A stretch of 64,000 nucleotides of DNA from Hyphobacterium sp. (GTDB lineage Bacteria > Pseudomonadota > Alphaproteobacteria > Caulobacterales > Maricaulaceae), in NCBI RefSeq assembly GCF_965228115.1, contig NZ_OZ245794.1:2335926-2399925 (forward strand), given 5' to 3'. The position numbers were made by a program, and so were the translations under genes. Positions within the stretch are counted from its first letter, which is position 1. Each line of letters begins with the position of its first letter. This document shows positions 415 through 11,702 of the stretch, in pieces. The notes beneath the pieces were generated by a model. It saw only the letters and a list, made by a program, of their open reading frames with translations, searched no databases and was not told the DNA's origin.

Positions 415-2394
415 ATGACGCCGCTGGACCTCAACACGTTGAAACCCATGGCGAATGCCATTCGGGCGCTGTCCATGGACTCCGTCGAACAGGCTAAATC
501 CGGCCATCCCGGCATGCCGATGGGCATGGCGGATACGGCGACCGTGTTGTGGTCCCGGCATCTGAAACACGACCCTGCAGACCCCGACTGGCACGACCGC
601 GACCGTTTCGTTTTGTCCGCAGGGCACGGCTCCATGCTGATCTATTCGCTTCTGCATCTGGCCGGCTATCCGGGGATGACTCTCGATCAGATCCGCGATT
701 TCCGCCAGCTGGGCTCCACCACGCCGGGCCATCCCGAGTTTGGTCACACGCCGGGCGTAGAGACGACGACCGGCCCGCTGGGGCAGGGAATCTCGACGGC
801 GGTCGGCATGGCGTTGGCCGAACGCTTGTTGAACGCGCGTTTCGGCGATGATCTGGTGGATCACCACACCTGGGTGATTGCGTCCGATGGCGATCTTCAG
901 GAAGGCATTTCACACGAAGCGATTTCGCTGGCGGGGCATTTGAAACTCAACCGGCTGATTGTCCTCTGGGATGACAATTCCATCCAGATTGACGGGGATA
1001 CCGACCTTGCAGAGAGCAGCCATACGCTCAAACGCTTTGAGGCCGCAGGTTGGACGACGGACACGGTTGATGGTCATGATATGGAGGCGGTGGATGCGGC
1101 CCTGAGCAACGCCAAGTCATCCGCAAAACCGGTCCTGATCGCGTGTAAAACCATTATCGGCTTTGGCGCGCCGACAAAGTCGGGATCTGCCTCAAGTCAT
1201 GGAGCGCCCTTGGGCCGCGATGAATTGATCGGCGCCAAAAAGGCCCTCGATTGGCCCCATGGGGCCTTTGAAGTGCCGGAAGATATCCGCACGAACTGGC
1301 TTGCCGCCACCGAGGCCGGCAAAGCCGCCCGGAAAGACTGGACGGCGCGCTATGAAAGCTCGTCCCGGCGGAAAGAGTTTGATCAGGCCTTTGAAGGCGG
1401 ATTGCCAGTCGAGGCGGCCAAAGCCTTGTCCGATTGGCGTTATGAGGTCGCGGCGGAAAAGCCTGACCTTGCCAGTCGGGCGGCTTCCGGCAAAACACTG
1501 GAACATATCGTGCCGGTGATGCGCGAGCTGGTGGGCGGATCGGCCGATTTGTCCGGCTCCAATAACACAAAAACCCCAAATCAGGGCGTTATCCAGGCCG
1601 ATGCCTATTCCGGTCAGTACATCCATTATGGCGTTCGTGAACATGGCATGGCGGCCTGTGCCAATGGATTGTCCTTGCATGGCGGGGTGCGGCCCTATAT
1701 CGGCACCTTTTTAGTGTTTGCCGATTATTGCCGGCCTTCGATTCGCCTGGCCGCGCTGATGAATCAGCCGGTCACTTACGTCTTCACGCACGATTCCATC
1801 GGGCTCGGAGAGGACGGCCCGACCCACCAGCCGGTTGAACATCTGGCGTCCTTGCGCGCGATGCCGAATTTGCGGGTTTTCCGTCCGGGCGATGCCCTGG
1901 AAGTTGCGGAATGCTGGGAGATGGCACTGGCGCACAAAACCGGGCCGAGCCTGCTTGCTCTGTCGCGTCAGAAACTGCCCTTTGTGCGCCAGGATGATGG
2001 CCGCGATAACAAGTCGGAATGGGGCGGCTATGTGCTCCGCGATGCGCCGGAGGCAAAAGCCGTTATTCTTGCCACCGGGTCAGAAGTCAGCCTGGCGGTG
2101 GAGGCTTTCGACCGGCTGGCAGAGATGCGCATTCCGGTCCGGGTCGTCTCGGTGCCCTGTCTCGATCTCTTTCTGGAGGAGGACAAAGCCTATCTTGATG
2201 AGGTTCTGCCCGAAGGCCTGCCGCGGATCGCAGTCGAAGCCGGAATCCGGCAAGGATGGGACGCGATTATCGGGCGCGAAGGCGGCTTTATCGGCATGAC
2301 CGGATTCGGTGCTTCAGCGCCCGCCGAAGCGCTCTATGAGCATTTCGGCATAACCGTCGAAGCGGTGATTGAGGCTGTGAAAGCGCGGGTCTAG
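415..2394 (+). CDS. tkt: Transketolase
   Basis: 659-aa ORF. AKSGHPGMPMGMAD, SAGHGSMLIYSLLHLAGY and GEDGPTHQPVEHLASLRAMPN are canonical transketolase motifs. Confidence 0.97.
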   Translation: MTPLDLNTLKPMANAIRALSMDSVEQAKSGHPGMPMGMADTATVLWSRHLKHDPADPDWHDRDRFVLSAGHGSMLIYSLLHLAGYPGMTLDQIRDFRQLGSTTPGHPEFGHTPGVETTTGPLGQGISTAVGMALAERLLNARFGDDLVDHHTWVIASDGDLQEGISHEAISLAGHLKLNRLIVLWDDNSIQIDGDTDLAESSHTLKRFEAAGWTTDTVDGHDMEAVDAALSNAKSSAKPVLIACKTIIGFGAPTKSGSASSHGAPLGRDELIGAKKALDWPHGAFEVPEDIRTNWLAATEAGKAARKDWTARYESSSRRKEFDQAFEGGLPVEAAKALSDWRYEVAAEKPDLASRAASGKTLEHIVPVMRELVGGSADLSGSNNTKTPNQGVIQADAYSGQYIHYGVREHGMAACANGLSLHGGVRPYIGTFLVFADYCRPSIRLAALMNQPVTYVFTHDSIGLGEDGPTHQPVEHLASLRAMPNLRVFRPGDALEVAECWEMALAHKTGPSLLALSRQKLPFVRQDDGRDNKSEWGGYVLRDAPEAKAVILATGSEVSLAVEAFDRLAEMRIPVRVVSVPCLDLFLEEDKAYLDEVLPEGLPRIAVEAGIRQGWDAIIGREGGFIGMTGFGASAPAEALYEHFGITVEAVIEAVKARV

Positions 2395-3575
2395 CCCGCT
2401 ATTTCCACAATTCCGAATCCGAATAATTGATCTATCGCTTTCTGTGCGGTCTCGTCATCGGTGTTGAATACCGACCGGTCGAAGACCCCTCCATCAAGGA
2501 TTTTGTCGAGACCCGGTTCCAGCGCAGCCGGGAAGGTCAACTCTCCTCCGGCAGTGATCATCACCAGCTGATCCCCATCCCCGGCCAATCGCCAGGGAAT
2601 GAAGGGCCGCAGCTTGAATTTCGCCTTGGCATCATAGCGCGCCGCGCGCTTGGTGATCGCGCCCTCTGAATATGCGGGCCGGGACCGGATGAAATTGTCG
2701 ATATAGATGTCCAGCGCATTATCGAGGCTGGCATGATCTGAAATCTTGCTGATCAGCTTGGCAAAATGGGCTTTGGCGGCACCCCGGTCATAGTCGGCCC
2801 GTGCAAAGCCGACCGGCAGGGTTTCACGGAATTCCTTGTGGCTCAGCGCCACTTCAGAAACCGCCTCCAGCATCAGATCGGCCCAGGTTTTGACGATCAG
2901 CCCCACCGTGATGTGCAGGCTGTCCCCTGTCCCCTGTGTTCGCGCATCATGCATCAGACCGCGCGGCACATAAGCCATTTCGCCGGCTTTCAGGACAAAT
3001 TCTTCCACCAGCTCGCCGGGGATGTCGCGTTGGCTGTTAAAGCCTTCGCCGCGATAGGGCTTGTCGACCGTCTGGTCATACAGCCGCCACAGCTTTTCGC
3101 CTTCGATTTGCAATACGAAGACATCGTGATCGTCATAATGCGTCCGGAAACCCTGATTGTTCGGCGGTGTCAGATAGATGTTGGTCTGAACGTGCACGCT
3201 GAGTTCTGCTTCGAGCGCGCGGCAGAATGTTTTCAACCCGCTTTCATGCTGGTGCAGTTGCGGCAGGATCAGGGTTGCACCTTCCTGATAGAGCTTGCCG
3301 ACGGCGCCGCGGTCCGCAAAACCTGATTCCAGAATGAAATCATCCCTGTTCAGTGGCGGATCTGCCCGCGCCATATCCAGGTTGTCGCCGTGCAGGTCCC
3401 GCCCGGAAAGCAAATCGTCGATCTTCGTGATCGAGAGCAGATCGCTGTAACGGTCTGGCTCATCGCGGTGAACGATCAGCGCTTTCTGCTCGAAATACCG
3501 TTCGAAAAAATCCGGCTTGAGTGATGGCCCGATTATGAAATCGAGCACATCCTCACCCCACGCAAAAGCGCTCAT
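2391..3575 (-). CDS. Cupin-4 / JmjC-type Fe(II)/2-oxoglutarate oxygenase of the ribosomal-oxygenase (YcfD/RoxA-like) family
   Basis: 394 aa. GFRTHYDDHDVFVLQIEGEKLWRLY (His-x-Asp plus the DVF.Q..G.K.W strand) and the later PRGLMHDA His match the facial-triad layout of YcfD-type cupins. Its stop shares a CTAG with the convergent tkt stop. It lies 27 nt downstream of the repeat-protein gene on the same strand. Confidence 0.8.
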   Translation of the reverse strand: MSAFAWGEDVLDFIIGPSLKPDFFERYFEQKALIVHRDEPDRYSDLLSITKIDDLLSGRDLHGDNLDMARADPPLNRDDFILESGFADRGAVGKLYQEGATLILPQLHQHESGLKTFCRALEAELSVHVQTNIYLTPPNNQGFRTHYDDHDVFVLQIEGEKLWRLYDQTVDKPYRGEGFNSQRDIPGELVEEFVLKAGEMAYVPRGLMHDARTQGTGDSLHITVGLIVKTWADLMLEAVSEVALSHKEFRETLPVGFARADYDRGAAKAHFAKLISKISDHASLDNALDIYIDNFIRSRPAYSEGAITKRAARYDAKAKFKLRPFIPWRLAGDGDQLVMITAGGELTFPAALEPGLDKILDGGVFDRSVFNTDDETAQKAIDQLFGFGIVEIAG

Positions 3576-3602
3576 CTTGTTATTCTACTCCGTTCCGCCG
3601 GA

Positions 3603-4088
3603 CTAGCAGCGCCGTCCGCGACCGACCGGATCGGCATAACTGCCGCCATCACTATCGGTGCAATTGCGCCGCCGCCGTCCGCCGCGGCCATTGCCGACCG
3701 GGTCCGCATAAGCGCCCGTATCACTGTCCGTTATACCGGAATTTCGTCCACCCCGACGTCCGCCCCGGCCGTTTCCAACCGGATCGGCATAGGACCCGCT
3801 ATCGCGGTCCGTGATGCCGGAGCCGCCACCCCGGCGGCCACCGCGGCCATTGCCGACCGGGTCTGCGTAAGAGCCGGTGTCACTGTCGGTAATGCCGCTT
3901 CGGTATCCGCCGCCTCCGCGGCCATATCCGGCTGGATCCGCATAAGATCCGACGTCCGAATCCGTAACGCCGGTATAGGCGCCCGTGGTGGTGCAGCCGG
4001 TAACGGCAGCAGCCGCCGTGCCTGTCAGGCCGACGCCTGCCACCTTGGTCAGAAATGAACGCCGGCTAAGTTTGCCCTTCTTGGCCAT
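3603..4088 (-). CDS. Tat-signal lipoprotein consisting of five TDSDxGxYADPxGxGR(GG) repeats
   Basis: 161 aa. MAKKGKLSRRSFLTKVAG matches the S-R-R-x-F-L-K Tat consensus. AVTGC is a lipobox-like cleavage site. The rest is 5 copies of TDSD(V/T/G)GSYADP(A/V)G(Y/N/R)GRGG.. and ends ..RRNC-TDSDGGSYADPVGRGRRC. A GGAGG SD lies upstream of the ATG. Confidence 0.75.
   Translation of the reverse strand: MAKKGKLSRRSFLTKVAGVGLTGTAAAAVTGCTTTGAYTGVTDSDVGSYADPAGYGRGGGGYRSGITDSDTGSYADPVGNGRGGRRGGGSGITDRDSGSYADPVGNGRGGRRGGRNSGITDSDTGAYADPVGNGRGGRRRRNCTDSDGGSYADPVGRGRRC
3606..3965 (-). repeat. In-frame tandem coding repeats (5 units of 18-27 codons) of the TDSDxGxYADPxGxGR motif
   Basis: Read directly from the translated ORF, residues 42-161. 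Confidence 0.8.
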
Positions 4089-4136
4089 GCCATGCCTCCA
4101 GGAATGAAAATCCCTCGCGTTTCAGATATCCTTCGC

Positions 4137-4556
4137 CTAACAGCGCCGGCCACGGCCCGCCGGGTCAGCATAGGTGCCCCCATCGGAATCCGTGCAACGA
4201 CGGCCGCCGCGGCCATTGCCGACCGGGTCCGCATAGGATCCGGTGTCGCTGTCGGTCACACCGCTGCGGCCTCGGCCGTTGCCTACAGGATCGTTCGGAT
4301 CACTGTCGGTCACGCCGCTGCGGCTACCCCGGCCATATCCAGCGCGGTCAGCATTGCTGCCGCCATCGCTATCCGTGCGGCCTGTACGTCCGTAACCGAC
4401 CCGGTCCGCATAGCGGCCGGTATCAGAATCCGTATTGCCGGTATAATTCTGCGCCTGAGCGCCGCCCGTCACCACGCCAGCCGCACCGGCTGCCATGCCT
4501 GCACCCGCGACGCGGGTCAGAAAGGAACGGCGGCTTAGTTTGCCTTTTTTGGCCAT
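4137..4556 (-). CDS. Tat-signal secreted paralogue with five TDSDxGxxADxxGxGR repeats
   Basis: Start moved to the internal ATG at 4556 (GGGGAG SD upstream), giving 139 aa. MAKKGKLSRRSFLTRVAG is nearly identical to the N-terminus of the neighbouring gene. AQA-QN is a signal-peptidase-I-like site. The C-terminus ..GRRC-TDSDGGTYADPAGRGRRC is the same Cys-bracketed last repeat. Confidence 0.75.
   Translation of the reverse strand: MAKKGKLSRRSFLTRVAGAGMAAGAAGVVTGGAQAQNYTGNTDSDTGRYADRVGYGRTGRTDSDGGSNADRAGYGRGSRSGVTDSDPNDPVGNGRGRSGVTDSDTGSYADPVGNGRGGRRCTDSDGGTYADPAGRGRRC
4140..4433 (-). repeat. In-frame tandem coding repeats (5 units, one truncated) of the TDSDxGxxADxxGxGR motif
   Basis: Read directly from the translated ORF, residues 42-139. 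Confidence 0.8.
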
Positions 4557-4643
4557 GAGTTCATCTCCCCTGAACTGCCATCCGGCATAACGCCGGTAAA
4601 CTCCCTCACCGAAACTGTGGCAATTCCGACCGCACGCGTCAAA

Positions 4644-4663
4644 TGCAAATCCAAGAATTTGCA
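4644..4663. promoter_or_regulatory. Perfect 7-6-7 inverted repeat TGCAAAT-ccaaga-ATTTGCA (candidate operator)
   Basis: Read directly from the sequence. It lies about 90-105 nt upstream of the repeat-protein start codon (4556), in the divergent spacer shared with ruvC. Confidence 0.35.
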
Positions 4664-4694
4664 AAGAAAACAGGCAAAATGCGCCGACTTTACT

Positions 4695-4713
4695 TTAACT
4701 GATAATCATTCTC
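4695..4713. promoter_or_regulatory. Fur-box-like site 1 (ttaacTGATAATCATTcTC)
   Basis: 14/19 matches to the classical GATAATGATAATCATTATC Fur consensus. The 15-mer TGATAATCATTCTCA recurs exactly at 4762-4776. Confidence 0.5.
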
Positions 4714-4756
4714 ACAGAATTGATCGCAGAAGGCGGGAAAGGCGCGGTAAAGGTGA

Positions 4757-4775
4757 AGTAATGATAATCATTCTC
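4757..4775. promoter_or_regulatory. Fur-box-like site 2 (agTAATGATAATCATTcTC)
   Basis: 16/19 matches to GATAATGATAATCATTATC. It is the second copy of the exact 15-mer direct repeat, 62 nt from the first. Confidence 0.6.
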
Positions 4776-4803
4776 AGAAAACCGGCGCAGCCGGGGAGTG
4801 GGC

Positions 4804-5334
4804 ATGCGCGCAATCGCGTCTAGACTGGCGACAATGAGCGCGCCGATTCGCATTCTCGGGATTGATCCCGGCCTCCGCCATACCGGCTGGGGCGTCATTT
4901 CCGTGGACGGCTCCCGGCTCGGCCTCGTGGCAGAGGGGCGGATTTCCCCCAAAACCGATCAAGCCTTGTCAGAGCGCTTGATGGATATCCATGCCGCGCT
5001 GGAAACCTTGATCTCGCAGTATCGCCCCAACGAAGCGGCGGCAGAGGAAACCTTCATGGCCAGTAATGCTGCCAGCGCGTTGAAGCTTGGCCATGCACGG
5101 GCGGCCGCGCTGCTGGCGCCGGCCCGGGCGGGACTGCCGGTGGCGGAATATGCCGCGCGGCTGGTGAAGAAATCTGTCGTCGGCACGGGCGGCGCGGACA
5201 AGGCGCAAGTCTCAGCCATGATCGGCGTACTCCTGCCCGGATGTAAGGCAAAAGACGATGCTGCGGATGCCTTGGCGGTCGCCATTTGCCATGCCCATCA
5301 TCGCAAGAGCCAGTCTCTGGGGGGTGCGGCATGA
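4804..5334 (+). CDS. ruvC: Crossover junction endodeoxyribonuclease RuvC
   Basis: IRILGIDPGLRHTGWGVI and DAADALAVAICHAH are RuvC signatures. I chose ATG 4804 because a GGGGAG SD lies 5 nt upstream. GTG 4798 (the track start) and ATG 4834 are alternatives. Confidence 0.92.
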   Translation: MRAIASRLATMSAPIRILGIDPGLRHTGWGVISVDGSRLGLVAEGRISPKTDQALSERLMDIHAALETLISQYRPNEAAAEETFMASNAASALKLGHARAAALLAPARAGLPVAEYAARLVKKSVVGTGGADKAQVSAMIGVLLPGCKAKDDAADALAVAICHAHHRKSQSLGGAA

Positions 5335-9804: not shown

Positions 9805-10473
9805 ATGGAAACCGGCATGATCGATGTGGCCCCAGTGGTTCAGGAATTCAGTTTCGTTGATTTATTCCTGCTCGCCGATTGGGTCGTGAAAAGCGTGATG
9901 ATTGTGCTGGTTCTGATGTCCATCTGGTCCTGGGCCATCGCGGTCGACAAATGGCTCAGCTTCCGGTCGGCACGGTCCAAGGGCAAGCATTTCGAAGAGG
10001 CCTTCTGGTCTGGCCGCGATCTGGACTCGCTTGCTAATGAATATGGCAAGCGTCCGCGTGACGCATTCAGCCGCGTATTTGCGGCGGGCTTGCGCGAATG
10101 GAAAGGCCGAAATGCGGGCGACCGCGTAGCCAAAGCCGCCAGCGCCGAATCCGCGCGGGAGCTGTCCAAGATGGAAGGCGGGCTTGGAATGCTGGCCACG
10201 ATTGGCTCCTCGGCACCCTTTATCGGCCTGTTCGGCACGGTCTGGGGAATCATGAATGCCTTCCGCGCCATTGCCGCCCAGCAGGACACCAGCCTGGCCG
10301 TTGTCGCACCGGGTATCGCCGAAGCGCTGTTCGCGACCGCGCTGGGGCTGCTCGCCGCCATCCCGGCTGTGATGTTCTTCAACGCACTAACCGCCAACCT
10401 GTCAGGTTATGCCGCAAAGCTGGAAGCTTTCGTGGACGAATTGTCCGCCCTCGCTGACCGGGAAGAGGGGTAG
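9805..10473 (+). CDS. tolQ: Tol-Pal system protein TolQ (MotA/TolQ/ExbB channel)
   Basis: GSSAPFIGLFGTVWGIMNAF motif. The track ORF begins at an upstream TTG; the ATG at 9805 (METGMIDV..) gives the normal length. Confidence 0.9.
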   Translation: METGMIDVAPVVQEFSFVDLFLLADWVVKSVMIVLVLMSIWSWAIAVDKWLSFRSARSKGKHFEEAFWSGRDLDSLANEYGKRPRDAFSRVFAAGLREWKGRNAGDRVAKAASAESARELSKMEGGLGMLATIGSSAPFIGLFGTVWGIMNAFRAIAAQQDTSLAVVAPGIAEALFATALGLLAAIPAVMFFNALTANLSGYAAKLEAFVDELSALADREEG

Positions 10474-10476
10474 GAT

Positions 10477-10902
10477 ATGGCCGGGTCCGTCGCCAATAAA
10501 GGAACGCGCGGCCGCTGGAAGCCGCAAGCCGAAATCAATGTTACCCCCTTTGTGGATGTGATGCTGGTTCTGCTCATCGTTTTCATGATCACCGCGCCGC
10601 TGCTGACAGTGGGTGTGGAAGTCGAGTTACCGGAAACAGAGGCCAGCTCATTGCCCGCAGACGAGGAACCGCTGACGATTACGGTGGGCCTGAATGGCGA
10701 GATTTTCCTGCAGGAAACGGAAATCGAGATCGAGCAATTGATTCCGCGGCTCGAGGCGATCGCCGGTGCTGGCTATGAGGGCCGTATCTTTATCCGCGCC
10801 GATGAAAACGCGAATTACGGAACCGTTGCGCGGGTGATGGCGCGGGTGTCCAACGCCGGTTACACAAATCTTGGCCTCGTACATCAGCCGCTGAACGACT
10901 AG
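10477..10902 (+). CDS. tolR: Tol-Pal system protein TolR (ExbD/TolR family)
   Basis: EINVTPFVDVMLVLLIVFMITAPL, plus synteny. Confidence 0.9.
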   Translation: MAGSVANKGTRGRWKPQAEINVTPFVDVMLVLLIVFMITAPLLTVGVEVELPETEASSLPADEEPLTITVGLNGEIFLQETEIEIEQLIPRLEAIAGAGYEGRIFIRADENANYGTVARVMARVSNAGYTNLGLVHQPLND

Positions 10903-10910
10903 CTGGCCGG

Positions 10911-11702
10911 ATGCGCGCGTTTCTCGTCTTTCTGGTTTCGCTTCTGGGCCACGCCGGGCTGGTTGTGGCCGGATTGCTGTATTTTCCCGAATCGACGCGC
11001 CAGTTTGCTACCAGCCAGATTGTGCCTCTTGAGCTGATTACCGAAATCCAGGAAATTACAAATCTTCCTGAGGAAGAGGTGGAAGAAGAGCCTGTTCTGG
11101 AGGAAGCTCCGCCCGAGCCGGAACCGGAAGAGACGCCGCCACCGCCCGATCCCGAACCCGAGGTCGAACTCGACGCTGAACCGGATGTTGCTCCTGTTGA
11201 CGAGGCAGAGCCCGAGGCGACACCTGCGCCCTCCGAAACGGCGCAGCCAGAGGAAGAAACCCCTCAACGCCCGGTTCGCTCTCGCCGGGAAGATTCTCTC
11301 GACTCCCTGCTGGCCGATCTTGCCAGCACGGTCGAGGAAGAACGGGGGTCTTCTTCCAGCCGCGATGACCGTCCAGCCCAGGCATCCTATGAAGCCCTTG
11401 GTATTACTCTGGCGGACTCCATCCGCTCACAAGCTCAGCGCTGCTATCGCAGCTCGGTAGATGCCCCCAATCCGGAACAGTTAATTGTGCTGGTGCGGGT
11501 CCGCCTCAACAGAGATGGTACGCTGGATGGCCAGCCTGATGTTTTGAATCGTGACACGATCGAAGGTTCGGGCAACCGATTCTGGCGTGTGGCGAGAGAC
11601 CGGTCGGTCGCCGCGATCATCGATTGTGCCCCTTATCGCCTGCCTGCCGAATACTTTTCAATTTGGCGCCGCATAGATGTCACGTTTCGAAGTGATAACT
11701 GA
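10911..11702 (+). CDS. tolA: TolA-like cell-envelope integrity protein
   Basis: N-terminal TM helix, a long Glu/Pro-rich linker, a small C-terminal domain, and a position between tolR and tolB. Confidence 0.75.
   Translation: MRAFLVFLVSLLGHAGLVVAGLLYFPESTRQFATSQIVPLELITEIQEITNLPEEEVEEEPVLEEAPPEPEPEETPPPPDPEPEVELDAEPDVAPVDEAEPEATPAPSETAQPEEETPQRPVRSRREDSLDSLLADLASTVEEERGSSSSRDDRPAQASYEALGITLADSIRSQAQRCYRSSVDAPNPEQLIVLVRVRLNRDGTLDGQPDVLNRDTIEGSGNRFWRVARDRSVAAIIDCAPYRLPAEYFSIWRRIDVTFRSDN

What the first reader, a model, noticed from the sequence alone, without database searches (positions are those of the whole stretch)
2391..4556. Ribosomal-oxygenase-type cupin-4/JmjC gene co-transcribed with two Tat-exported Asp/Gly/Arg repeat proteins: a candidate hydroxylate-then-export module
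Seen in the sequence: three co-directional minus-strand genes (4556->4137, 4088->3603, 3575->2391) are separated by only 48 and 27 nt, with no hairpin between them. The last gene encodes a 394-aa protein with the GFRTHYDDHDVFVLQIEGEKLW ... PRGLMHDA His-x-Asp...His layout of YcfD/RoxA-type cupin-4 oxygenases. Established knowledge: this family hydroxylates protein side chains. E. coli YcfD/RoxA acts on an Arg in a Gly-rich loop of ribosomal protein uL16, and human NO66/MINA53 act on His in ribosomal proteins. The Tat pathway exports proteins that have already folded or matured in the cytoplasm. Inference: behind near-perfect SRRSFL Tat signals, the two upstream products consist of little more than ten copies of a Gly-flanked Arg/Asp motif (..TDSDxGxYADPVGNGRGGRR..). 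They look like dedicated substrates that a cytoplasmic oxygenase modifies on Arg or Asp before export. Beta-hydroxy-Asp would make a strong metal-chelating surface, which would fit the Fur-like boxes upstream. I am not aware of a described system of this kind.
Basis: partly seen in the sequence, partly recalled or inferred. Interest (0 to 1): 0.8.

Follow-up and report, generated by a model that had tools for sequence, protein, structure and literature searches.

The report
Oxygenase paired with exported Asp-rich proteins
A bacterial relative of the human ribosome-hydroxylating enzyme NO66 is almost always encoded next to small exported proteins made of aspartate-rich repeats, which suggests it modifies those proteins before export rather than the ribosome; this enzyme-substrate pairing appears to be undescribed.

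Summary
Three minus-strand genes (4556->4137, 4088->3603, 3575->2391) lie 48 and 27 nt apart with no terminator between them. The last gene is a JmjC_2 oxygenase. The first two encode proteins with SRRSFL signals and five TDSDxGxYADPxGxGR units each.

The oxygenase is not a YcfD orthologue: phmmer gives NO66 3e-35 and YcfD 2e-3, and the model matches full-length NO66 at TM 0.72-0.74.

The repeat family is small (442 clusters at 50% identity) and entirely unannotated. A JmjC homologue lies within a few kb in 63 of 79 repeat-protein loci. Conversely, 11 of 12 JmjC homologues examined have an exported Asp-rich partner next door. This holds across Alphaproteobacteria, Myxococcota, Flavobacteriales and unclassified Pseudomonadota, in unrelated gene contexts and in all three relative orientations.

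Only a D-x-D element is shared by all partner types, so Asp is a more likely target than Arg. The catalytic residues are invariant in 76 homologues.

The only two Fur-like boxes in the 64-kb window sit upstream of the operon. Such boxes are enriched in related loci but are not universal.

Best reading: a cytoplasmic hydroxylase modifies dedicated substrates, which are then exported. The chemistry, the export route and any link to metals remain inferred. I found no description of the system in the literature available here.

The parts
2391..3575 (-). 394-aa cytoplasmic JmjC_2 (NO66/MINA53-like) Fe(II)/2-oxoglutarate oxygenase. Fe ligands are H146, D148 and H209; the 2OG-binding residue is K161. 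It has no signal peptide.
   Evidence: Pfam PF08007 at E 4e-29. PDB phmmer gives NO66 3e-35, MINA53 1e-30, YxbC 4e-18 and YcfD 2e-3. The AF2 model has pLDDT 88, and Foldseek matches full-length NO66 at TM 0.72-0.74. The triad and K161 are invariant in 76 homologues.
3576..3602 (-). 27-nt spacer containing a GGAG ribosome-binding site. It has no hairpin.
   Evidence: Sequence; no terminator-like site.
3603..4088 (-). 161-aa repeat protein. It has a Tat-type signal (SRRSFLTK), a lipobox (VTG|C) and five TDSDxGxYADPxGxGR units. The last unit is bounded by Cys...RRC at the C-terminus.
   Evidence: Translation. Units counted. The family has 423 homologues, all unnamed. There are no Pfam or PDB matches. 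AF2 predicts disorder, pLDDT 47.6.
4089..4136 (-). 48-nt spacer containing a GGAGG ribosome-binding site. It has no hairpin.
4137..4556 (-). 139-aa repeat protein. It has a Tat-type signal (SRRSFLTR), an AQA|Q signal-peptidase-I site and five units, one of the short TDSDPxDPxGxGR type. The last unit is Cys-bounded.
   Evidence: TIGR01409 scores 16.3 bits against a cutoff of 16.7.
4695..4719 (.). Proximal Fur-like box: 14/19 to GATAATGATAATCATTATC. It is copy 1 of a 20-nt direct repeat.
4757..4781 (.). Distal Fur-like box: 16/19 to the consensus and 21.6 bits on the family PWM, against a background 99th percentile of 17.6. It is copy 2 of the direct repeat.

Best explanation
The three genes form an enzyme-plus-substrates module. 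The cytoplasmic NO66-like JmjC oxygenase uses Fe(II), 2-oxoglutarate and O2 to hydroxylate side chains in the repeated, disordered Asp-rich units of the two co-encoded proteins while these are still in the cytoplasm. The most likely target is an Asp of the [ST]-D-x-D element, giving beta-hydroxy-aspartate; the invariant Arg of G-x-G-R is the second candidate.

The modified proteins are then exported through their twin-arginine signal peptides. One becomes a membrane-anchored lipoprotein and the other a soluble periplasmic protein. Disulfides can then close the Cys-bounded terminal loops.

The result would be an envelope-resident array of acidic, hydroxylated, probably metal-binding loops. In this organism the module appears to be under a Fur-family metal-responsive repressor.

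Shown here: the gene anatomy, the enzyme family and its intact active site, the conserved two-way genomic linkage, the predicted disorder of the substrates, and the presence and enrichment of Fur-like boxes.

Inferred: the hydroxylation, its target residue, the order 'modify then export', Tat dependence, and metal binding.
For: Linkage. A JmjC homologue lies within a few kb in 63 of 79 species-representative loci carrying the repeat motif. Of these, 53 are on the same strand directly downstream and 8 are divergent. In the reverse direction, 11 of 12 JmjC homologues (32-51% identical to the window's) have an exported Asp-rich partner adjacent. These include Caulobacterales, Brevundimonas, Allosphingosinicella (convergent orientation), Myxococcales, Flavobacteriales and unclassified Pseudomonadota, all in unrelated contexts. 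No other gene is shared beyond family-level ruvCAB/tkt synteny.

Enzyme. H146, D148, H209, K161, N132, Y134, R205 and H221-x-T223 are invariant in 76 homologues. The protein has the full ROX three-domain fold and no signal peptide.

Substrates. All 149 repeat ORFs carry RRxFL. AF2 predicts disorder, as expected for a JmjC peptide substrate. Unit positions that the search pattern left free are strongly conserved: G6 98%, R16 96%, A9 86%.

Target residue. Only D-x-D is shared by all partner types. G-x-G-[RK] is absent from the L086, L093, L096 and L097 variants.

Regulation. The only two Fur-like boxes in the window lie upstream of the operon. Scores of at least 14/19 occur in 14 of 78 related upstream regions against 17 of 1580 random regions.

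Precedents. JmjC hydroxylases occur in RiPP clusters (PMC12257519, PMC11575548). Asp beta-hydroxylation of ribosomal peptides is known (PMC12186529). Cytoplasmic modification followed by signal-peptide export is known for DAG-RiPPs and bufferins (PMC13056109).
Against: - There is no biochemical evidence, so the modification and its site are unproven.
- All characterised ROX-subfamily enzymes act on basic residues (His, Arg), which argues for Arg rather than Asp.
- Sixteen of 79 repeat loci have no JmjC within 10 kb. At least two of these contigs are truncated. The rest are mainly Erythrobacteraceae and Sandaracinaceae/Polyangia.
- A Sandaracinus JmjC orthologue has no partner within 8 kb, so linkage is strong but not obligatory.
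- Fur-like boxes are absent from most Maricaulis, Rhodobacteraceae and Myxococcota loci and from the 11 extra loci tested.
- An Fe(II)-dependent enzyme induced by iron starvation is somewhat paradoxical.
- Tat use could simply reflect the Arg-rich mature regions, which Sec handles badly. Flavobacterial partners use ordinary lipoprotein signals.
Confidence: 0.62

Rival explanations
1. The module is a RiPP-like pathway with multi-core precursors. The repeat proteins would be hydroxylated, exported, and then cut at the basic Gly/Arg linkers. This would release about 17-20-residue peptides, some disulfide-cyclised, that act as diffusible metallophores, signals or antimicrobials.
For: - One to four tandem paralogous precursor genes occur per locus.
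- The units resemble repeated cores separated by GRGGRR-type linkers.
- 103 of 833 units are bounded by a Cys pair.
- A conserved N-terminal motif, [TS]L.[DE].[DE]I, precedes the RR in 88 of 260 family members and could serve as a leader or recognition element.
- The shortest partners would give mature peptides of about 19-40 residues (L096, L097).
Against: - No protease, transporter or immunity gene is conserved near the pair.
- About 40% of family members have a lipobox, and some carry a C-terminal peptidoglycan-binding domain, PF01471 (P0002, P0026, P0032). Both point to retention in the envelope as intact proteins.
- The leader-like motif is absent from the window's proteins and from Maricaulaceae generally.
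Confidence: 0.15
2. The JmjC protein is a ribosomal oxygenase like its relatives, for example acting on uL2 as NO66 does. Its adjacency to the repeat genes would then not reflect an enzyme-substrate relation. It could be inherited synteny, or shared regulation only.
For: - The nearest characterised relatives (NO66, MINA53, YcfD) all hydroxylate ribosomal proteins (PMC5862935, PMC6006756).
- Databases label homologues 'ribosomal protein L16 Arg81 hydroxylase'.
- In Sandaracinus the gene stands alone.
- From memory, not tested: the P-x-G-x-G-R segment of the unit resembles the Gly-rich uL2 loop that NO66 modifies.
Against: - Adjacency survives complete changes of context and of orientation across several phyla. 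Inherited synteny cannot explain that.
- The partner changes in sequence class but stays exported and Asp-rich.
- Similarity to YcfD is marginal (E 2e-3).
- According to PMC5862935, YcfD is essentially a gammaproteobacterial protein.
Confidence: 0.1
3. The repeat proteins are unmodified acidic cation-binding or structural envelope proteins, for example binding Ca2+ or Mg2+. The JmjC protein would serve them non-catalytically, as a cytoplasmic chaperone or export-proofreading factor comparable to TorD or DmsD for other Tat substrates.
For: - Tat substrates often have dedicated cytoplasmic binding proteins encoded in the same operon (established knowledge).
- The D-x-D-x-G...D pattern looks like a cation-binding loop.
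- The substrates are disordered and might need protection from proteolysis.
Against: - The Fe(II) triad and the 2OG-binding Lys are invariant in all 76 homologues. A purely binding role would not require that.
- No Pfam Ca-binding repeat model (TSP_3, HemolysinCabind, EF-hand) matches, even at E 1.
- The association also holds for non-Tat partners in Flavobacteriales.
Confidence: 0.08

Closest known systems
Human NO66/RIOX1 and MINA53/RIOX2 (ribosomal oxygenases)
   Same: They are the best sequence and structure matches: E 3e-35 and 1e-30, 25-26% identity, TM 0.70-0.74 over all three domains (JmjC, helical and C-terminal winged-helix). They share the same HxD...H triad and a Lys in the aligned ...EG.KLW... 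segment. They also share the 'HxT in strand 8' and 'Arg between strands 6 and 7' markers that PMC2938197 lists for bacterial versions close to the eukaryotic ones.
   Different: NO66 and MINA53 hydroxylate a single His in a ribosomal protein. Here the conserved partner is an exported, repetitive, Asp-rich protein with no conserved His. H150 and D210 are invariant in this family, whereas NO66 has Ile and Gln at the aligned positions.
E. coli YcfD/RoxA (uL16 Arg81 hydroxylase)
   Same: Same Pfam family and same overall three-domain fold (TM about 0.55). It is a bacterial protein hydroxylase acting on a residue in a Gly-rich loop.
   Different: Sequence similarity is marginal: E 2e-3 over 73 residues, 14% identity. 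YcfD binds the 2OG C5 carboxylate with Arg (PMC5862935), whereas this family has an invariant Lys. The genomic context and presumed substrate also differ.
FIH and AspH (Asp/Asn beta-hydroxylases of ankyrin repeats and EGF domains)
   Same: These are 2OG oxygenases that hydroxylate Asp or Asn in many copies of a repeated motif. AspH substrates are secreted, Cys-bounded, Ca-binding modules with an aromatic residue a few positions after the Asp. That resembles C-T-D-S-D-x-G-x-Y here (established knowledge, offered as an analogy).
   Different: FIH is only a distant structural match (TM about 0.34). AspH belongs to a different family and acts inside the eukaryotic secretory pathway, not before export. 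Asp as the target here is inferred, not shown.
Signal-peptide-bearing RiPPs: bufferins and DAG-RiPPs (MNIO enzymes)
   Same: The same logic applies. A cytoplasmic iron enzyme modifies a ribosomal precursor that carries a general-secretion or lipoprotein signal peptide. The product is exported and can be lipid-anchored, and several of these products bind metals (PMC13056109).
   Different: The enzyme class differs (JmjC 2OG oxygenase rather than MNIO). No partner or RRE protein is present. The signals are mostly Tat-type. The precursors are tandem arrays of 2-10 units rather than a single core.
RiPP hydroxylases: BpmG/PbsQ (JmjC, biphenomycins); CinX/DurX, YhhC, CanE and SmaO (Asp beta-hydroxylases)
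   Same: They show that JmjC enzymes are used on ribosomal peptides (PMC12257519, PMC11575548). They also show that Asp next to Gly in D-G-D-G-type motifs is beta-hydroxylated in RiPPs (PMC12186529).
   Different: Those enzymes sit in multi-enzyme clusters that make small secondary metabolites. Here the module is just enzyme plus precursors, and the products look like envelope proteins.

Membership tests
JmjC_2 / ribosomal-oxygenase (ROX) structural family | Match to Pfam PF08007 above its gathering score | tested here: met
   101 bits against a cutoff of 22, E 4e-29.
JmjC_2 / ribosomal-oxygenase (ROX) structural family | HxD...H Fe(II) triad and a basic 2OG C5-binding residue | tested here: met
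   H146, D148, H209 and K161 align with the corresponding NO66 positions. They are invariant in 76 homologues.
JmjC_2 / ribosomal-oxygenase (ROX) structural family | Three-domain architecture: JmjC barrel, helical dimerisation domain and C-terminal winged helix | tested here: met
   The AF2 model (pLDDT 88) aligns with NO66 over about 440 columns at TM 0.72-0.74, and with MINA53 at 0.70.
JmjC_2 / ribosomal-oxygenase (ROX) structural family | The substrate is a ribosomal protein | not testable with these tools
   Genomic context points instead to exported Asp-rich proteins. Proteomics is needed to settle this.
YcfD/RoxA orthologue (uL16 Arg hydroxylase) | Full-length sequence similarity to YcfD, with YcfD as the closest characterised relative | tested here: not met
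   YcfD scores E 2e-3 over residues 141-213 only. NO66, MINA53 and YxbC all score far better. Foldseek identity is 13-15%.
YcfD/RoxA orthologue (uL16 Arg hydroxylase) | Arg as the 2OG C5-carboxylate ligand (R140 in E. coli, R148 in R. marinus; PMC5862935) | tested here: not met
   The aligned basic residue is an invariant Lys, K161, as in NO66.
Twin-arginine (Tat) exported proteins | S/T-R-R-x-F-L-K motif followed by a hydrophobic region and a cleavage site | tested here: met
   The proteins carry SRRSFLTK with VTG|C and SRRSFLTR with AQA|Q. All 149 family ORFs have RRxFL, as do 253 of 260 representatives.
Twin-arginine (Tat) exported proteins | TIGR01409 Tat-signal HMM above its cutoff | tested here: inconclusive
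   Scores are 16.3 and 9.9 bits against a cutoff of 16.7.
Twin-arginine (Tat) exported proteins | Export depends on TatABC | not testable with these tools
   This needs a tat mutant or a reporter fusion.
RiPP (ribosomally synthesised, post-translationally modified peptide) system | Precursor gene(s) co-located with a modifying enzyme | tested here: met
   63 of 79 loci forward and 11 of 12 loci in reverse.
RiPP (ribosomally synthesised, post-translationally modified peptide) system | A leader or recognition sequence, and proteolytic release of a small mature peptide | tested here: inconclusive
   A conserved [TS]L.[DE].[DE]I motif precedes the RR in 88 of 260 members but is absent here. No protease is conserved nearby. 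Lipoboxes and PG-binding fusions argue for retained proteins.
Fur-family regulon member | A Fur-box-like palindrome in the promoter region, conserved in orthologous loci | tested here: inconclusive
   Boxes of 16/19 and 14/19 are the only ones in the 64-kb window. Related loci are enriched: 14 of 78 against 17 of 1580 random regions. The boxes are confined to the Hyphobacterium clade and a few others, and are absent in 11 distant loci. Which Fur paralogue might bind (Fur, Zur or Mur) is unknown.
Known Ca-binding repeat families (TSP type 3, RTX/HemolysinCabind, EF-hand) | Match to the family HMM | tested here: not met
   No Pfam or NCBIfam family matches the mature regions at E up to 1. No PDB sequence matches at E up to 10.

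The most novel reading that the evidence does not exclude
The closest bacterial relatives of the eukaryotic ribosomal oxygenases NO66 and MINA53 are not ribosome modifiers. They would instead be dedicated maturases of a previously unrecognised class of ribosomally made, exported poly-(beta-hydroxy-aspartate) proteins and lipopeptides. These would be genetically encoded analogues of beta-hydroxyaspartate siderophores that capture or buffer iron or other cations in the cell envelope, and in some lineages they would be controlled by Fur.
Probability: 0.3. Interest if true: 0.85.

Novelty: new variant of a known kind. Interest (0 to 1): 0.72.

Why it matters
If confirmed, this would give the first physiological substrate class for the large bacterial NO66/MINA53-like branch of JmjC oxygenases. 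Databases currently label that branch by default as 'L16 Arg81 hydroxylase'.

It would add a 2OG/JmjC enzyme and Tat-type precursors to the recently recognised 'modify in the cytoplasm, export through a general signal peptide' route (bufferins, DAG-RiPPs).

It would define a new family of repeat proteins in the envelopes of marine Alphaproteobacteria, Myxococcota and Bacteroidota, possibly with a role in metal homeostasis.

It also bears on how the eukaryotic ribosomal oxygenases arose from bacterial peptide-modifying ancestors, as PMC2938197 proposed.

The system has only two components, so a simple co-expression and mass-spectrometry experiment can test it directly.

Tried and rejected
- Family alignment as a scan query. 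An alignment of two-unit C-terminal segments worked.
- Annotation of the repeat proteins. Pfam, NCBIfam and PDB searches found only weak Tat-signal hits.
- Structure of a repeat protein. The AF2 model is low-confidence and disordered, so no fold search was attempted on it.
- Third system component. No protease, transporter or receptor is shared across lineages. The only shared neighbours are ruvCAB and tkt, which reflects synteny within Maricaulaceae.
- Promoter scan. It found no sigma-70-like site, so the transcription start relative to the Fur-like boxes is unknown.
- Rfam scan of 2200-5200. The only hit is a chance-level CRISPR-DR match at E 0.8, so there is no evidence of a riboswitch or sRNA.
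- Fur-box search in 11 distant loci. It was negative, with the best score 13/19.
- Chowdhury et al. 2014 (Nature 510:422). The paper was not available, and model coordinates are not exposed by the tools. Substrate-pocket residues therefore could not be compared in three dimensions, and the target residue is argued from partner-sequence comparison only.
- 'GlyRR' domain. PMC2938197 mentions a 'GlyRR' glycine-rich repeat domain that is also found standing alone in prokaryotes. Whether this is the same family could not be checked, because the figure and supplement are not held.
- Second ycfD gene.

Full report
**1. The observation**

The 394-aa gene runs 3575->2391, the 161-aa gene 4088->3603, and the 139-aa gene 4556->4137. 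The mechanical ORF list extends the third ORF to a TTG at 4664. The ATG at 4556 is the better start because it follows a GGGGAG ribosome-binding site and reproduces the MAKKGKLSRRSFL N-terminus of the paralogue.

The spacers are 48 and 27 nt, and no terminator-like hairpin lies between the genes. The module is bounded by a convergent transketolase gene, whose last four bases overlap the oxygenase gene's last four at 2391-2394, and by a divergent ruvC-ruvA-ruvB set. It is therefore a self-contained three-gene unit.

All ten motif units in the 64-kb window lie in the two upstream genes, five in each. The DNA shows a 78-81-nt periodicity.

**2. The enzyme**

The 394-aa protein matches Pfam JmjC_2 (PF08007, the former Cupin_4) at E 4e-29. 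No NCBIfam model names it.

Against all PDB sequences, the ranking is human NO66 (E 3e-35), MINA53 (1e-30) and B. subtilis YxbC (4e-18). E. coli YcfD reaches only 2e-3, over 73 residues.

An AlphaFold2 model built from 38 homologues is confident (pLDDT 88, pTM 0.83). It superposes on full-length NO66 at TM 0.72-0.74 over about 440 columns, on MINA53 at 0.70, on YcfD at about 0.55 and on FIH at about 0.34. The protein therefore has the complete three-domain ribosomal-oxygenase architecture but is not a YcfD orthologue.

PMC5862935 states that YcfD uses Arg to bind the 2OG C5 carboxylate and is essentially a gammaproteobacterial protein. Here the aligned residue is Lys161, as in NO66.

In an alignment of 76 homologues from Alphaproteobacteria, Myxococcota, Flavobacteriales and unclassified Pseudomonadota, the following are invariant: H146, D148, H209, K161, N132, Y134, R205 and H221-x-T223. 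The last two features are those that Iyer et al. (PMC2938197) list for bacterial MINA/No66-like proteins 'closer to eukaryotic homologs'. The enzymes therefore look catalytically competent.

The window's protein is 100% identical to a 'cupin domain-containing protein' of a Hyphobacterium sp. on a 2.77-Mb contig.

**3. The repeat proteins**

Neither protein matches any Pfam, NCBIfam or PDB entry beyond a weak Tat-signal hit.

Signals. Both proteins begin with S-R-R-S-F-L. The 161-aa protein continues to a lipobox (VTG|C). The 139-aa protein continues to an AQA|Q signal-peptidase site. This pairing of a lipoprotein with a soluble paralogue recurs in related loci.

Family size. A word-indexed search found 423 homologues, and every one that carries a name is called 'hypothetical'. 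An exhaustive HMMER search of 1.84 billion cluster representatives found 442 at E <= 1e-3 and 199 at E <= 1e-10. The family is real but small.

Unit consensus. Across 833 units from 149 ORFs the consensus is [ST]-G-[IVC]-T-D-S-D-[ST]-G-x-Y-A-D-P-[AV]-G-x-G-R-G. Positions that the search pattern left free are highly conserved: G6 98%, R16 96%, A9 86%, P11 78%. There are 47 shortened units of the form TDxDPxDPxGxGR. In 103 units a Cys precedes the unit and another follows about 18 residues later. This is typically the last unit, ending ...GRRC.

Other features. All 149 ORFs carry RRxFL, about 40% have a lipobox, and loci hold one to four tandem paralogues. A few members from Anaerolineae end in a peptidoglycan-binding domain, PF01471. 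AlphaFold2 predicts the mature region to be disordered (pLDDT 47.6).

**4. Linkage, forward direction**

A scan of one genome per GTDB species with the two-unit motif returned 186 confirmed stretches, of which 79 loci were kept. tblastn with the window's oxygenase finds a homologue (34-74% identity) within a few kb in 63 of the 79.

In 53 loci the homologue is on the same strand, directly downstream of the last repeat gene, with a median gap of 132 nt. In eight loci, all Rhodobacteraceae, it is divergently transcribed.

Clustering all ORFs of the loci shows no other gene shared beyond the ruvCAB/tkt synteny of Maricaulaceae.

Sixteen loci lack a homologue within 10 kb. At least two of these contigs are cut right next to the match. 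The remainder are Erythrobacteraceae (the Aurantiacibacter group), Sandaracinaceae/Polyangia, one Rhodobacteraceae, one Anaerolineae and one unclassified alphaproteobacterium. They share no alternative enzyme.

**5. Linkage, reverse direction**

Twelve oxygenase homologues, 32-51% identical to the window's protein, were traced to their contigs. Eleven have a small exported Asp-rich protein next door.

Canonical repeat proteins are found in seven cases:
- Caulobacterales (L080; 7-nt gap, in a completely different context)
- Hyphomonadaceae (L083)
- Myxococcales (L087 and L088)
- Allosphingosinicella (L089; convergent orientation)
- Woodsholea (L094)
- Brevundimonas (L095; short units)
- a Pseudomonadota MAG (L098; divergent orientation)

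Two Flavobacteriales lineages instead carry an approximately 100-aa lipoprotein with a single degenerate, Cys-bounded, Asp-rich unit and no twin arginine (L086, L091-L093).

Two further Pseudomonadota MAGs carry very short acidic partners:
- L096 has a Tat-type signal followed by DDDSSASDDATEESDDSSESSDD...
- L097 has a lipobox followed by CSDREEATEDDPDTDGDSDS.

The one exception is a Sandaracinus sp. orthologue with no partner within 8 kb. Sandaracinus genomes do encode repeat proteins elsewhere (P0084, P0095). At least at genus level, then, loci without linkage do not mean the enzyme is absent from the genome.

Adjacency that survives changes of phylum, neighbouring genes and orientation is what a functional enzyme-substrate pair predicts. 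Inherited synteny does not predict it.

**6. Which residue is modified?**

This cannot be decided computationally, but the comparison across partner types is informative. Every partner type contains a D-x-D element, usually as [ST]-D-x-D-[ST]. The G-x-G-[RK] element is missing from the Flavobacteriales partners and from the two short acidic partners. That favours Asp, giving beta-hydroxy-aspartate.

Arg16 remains a candidate in the canonical family because all characterised ROX enzymes act on basic residues in Gly-rich loops (His for NO66 and MINA53, Arg for YcfD). H150 and D210 are invariant in this family, whereas NO66 has Ile and Gln at the aligned positions. Without model coordinates I could not place them relative to the metal.

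My estimate is Asp about 55%, Arg about 20% and something else about 25%.

**7. Regulation and a possible link to metals**

The window's only two sites scoring at least 14/19 against the E. coli Fur consensus are at 4695-4713 and 4757-4775, which is 140-220 nt upstream of the first start codon. They form a 20-nt direct repeat spaced 62 nt apart.

Among 78 related upstream regions, 14 score at least 14/19. Among random 450-nt pieces of the same loci, 17 of 1580 do so. With a position weight matrix refined from these sites, about 14 loci exceed the background 99th percentile. That matrix is partly fitted to the data.

The sites are concentrated in the Hyphobacterium clade, with scattered cases in Maricaulis, Parasphingopyxis and Aurantiacibacter. 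Most other lineages lack them, as do the 11 distant loci tested.

Two further hints are anecdotal. The L096 pair lies beside a FecI/FecR/TonB-receptor set together with ABM and NAD-binding genes. In L086 the gene directly downstream of the oxygenase (convergent) is an FTR1-cytochrome c iron permease.

A metal-responsive role, possibly involving iron, is therefore plausible for this organism but is not established for the family. The box could also belong to another Fur-family regulator.

**8. Mechanism proposed**

1. The oxygenase has no signal peptide and needs Fe(II), 2OG and O2. It must therefore meet its substrate in the cytoplasm.
2. The substrates are disordered, hydrophilic repeat arrays, which is the form in which JmjC hydroxylases bind peptides.
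3. After modification, the substrates leave through their signal peptides. One becomes lipid-anchored and one soluble.
4. Periplasmic oxidation could then close the Cys-bounded loops.

Tat use fits post-translational export of a protein that must first dwell in the cytoplasm. From established knowledge, Tat can carry small unstructured hydrophilic proteins. Tat is not essential to this logic, however: Flavobacterial partners use ordinary lipoprotein signals, and Tat may simply be needed because Arg-rich mature regions are poor Sec substrates.

The steps shown and the steps inferred are listed separately under the best explanation.

**9. Comparison with what is known**

The enzyme is a member of the JmjC_2/ROX structural family, since the features tested for it are met. 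It fails the tests for YcfD orthology.

Functionally, the nearest parallels are:
- FIH and AspH, which hydroxylate Asp or Asn in repeated modules. AspH acts on secreted, Cys-bounded Ca-binding EGF domains.
- RiPP Asp beta-hydroxylases: CinX/DurX, YhhC, CanE and SmaO (PMC12186529).
- JmjC hydroxylases in RiPP clusters: BpmG/PbsQ (PMC12257519) and the curacozole pathway (PMC11575548).
- The 'modify, then export by a general signal peptide' systems: bufferins and DAG-RiPPs (PMC13056109).

What is new is the combination: a NO66-like ROX enzyme, precursors with mostly Tat-type signals, tandem multi-unit substrates, and a two-component module.

Full-text searches returned no paper combining JmjC with twin-arginine, and related queries turned up nothing describing this system. 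The systematic neighbourhood survey of bacterial JmjC proteins by Iyer et al. (PMC2938197) reports ATP-grasp, cyanophage and pseudouridine-synthase/mnmA/purB contexts for the MINA/No66 clade. Its text contains no occurrence of 'twin-arginine' or 'signal peptide', and its passages on MINA/No66-clade neighbourhoods describe no exported partner. Its figure legend mentions a 'GlyRR' glycine-rich repeat domain that is also found standing alone in prokaryotes. I could not check whether that is the same family.

**10. Verdict**

- The enzyme is NO66-type, not YcfD-type.
- Tat and Fur are features of some lineages rather than defining features of the system.
- Asp is a somewhat better candidate target than Arg.

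I rate this a new variant of a known kind (a dedicated hydroxylase with ribosomally made, signal-peptide-bearing substrates). I give it high interest because it reassigns a large, mis-annotated enzyme clade and can be tested with one co-expression experiment.

Noticed in passing
L006, L018, L027, L068, L086, L093, L096, L097, L098 (N-termini of partner proteins); absent at window 4088 and 4556: A conserved motif, [TS]-L-x-[DE]-x-[DE]-I, lies 5-25 residues before the twin arginine in partners from Rhodobacteraceae, Myxococcota, Anaerolineae, Flavobacteriales and Pseudomonadota MAGs (88 of 260 family representatives). Maricaulaceae lack it. Among the 79 scanned loci, 9 of the 15 that carry the motif have no adjacent JmjC. 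It could be an enzyme-recognition (leader-like) element.
   Followed up: partly
L096:1-5400: The JmjC and acidic-peptide pair of a Pseudomonadota MAG lies beside an ECF sigma factor (FecI-like), FecR, a TonB-dependent receptor with an STN domain, an ABM monooxygenase and a NAD-binding reductase. Together these form an iron-uptake-type locus.
   Followed up: no
L086:9227-11161: In a Flavobacteriales genome, the gene directly downstream of the JmjC gene (convergent) encodes an FTR1 iron permease fused to cytochrome c domains.
   Followed up: no
L066:9756-11549: In a Polyangiales MAG, the Tat signal of the repeat gene is in the same reading frame as the downstream JmjC gene, while the repeats themselves are in another frame. 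This is either an assembly frameshift or an unusual arrangement.
   Followed up: no
P0002, P0026, P0032 (e.g. L068:8232-9038): Some repeat proteins (Anaerolineae MAGs) carry a C-terminal peptidoglycan-binding domain, PF01471. This suggests the mature protein stays attached to the cell wall.
   Followed up: partly
L080:2657-5339: In a Caulobacterales contig, an Asparaginase_2 (isoaspartyl-peptidase-type) gene lies directly upstream of the repeat gene on the same strand, and a second 2OG-Fe(II) oxygenase (PF13640) lies nearby. The units contain Asn-Gly and Asp-Gly dipeptides, which are prone to isoaspartate formation.
   Followed up: no
window 2391-2394: The convergent transketolase gene (415..2394, + strand) and the JmjC gene (3575->2391, - strand) overlap by four bases at their stop codons. 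No room is left for a terminator between them.
   Followed up: no
L095:7234-8265 and 10359-11651: In Brevundimonas, the JmjC gene is followed by a pseudouridine synthase gene, with an adenylosuccinate synthetase gene nearby. This recalls the pseudouridine-synthase/mnmA/purB neighbourhood that PMC2938197 reported for other bacterial MINA/No66-clade genes, and it is probably coincidental.
   Followed up: no
L084:8001-9194: A Sandaracinus sp. JmjC orthologue stands next to a SpoVR-family gene, with no Asp-rich partner within 8 kb. Sandaracinus amylolyticus encodes repeat proteins elsewhere in its genome (P0084, P0095).
   Followed up: partly
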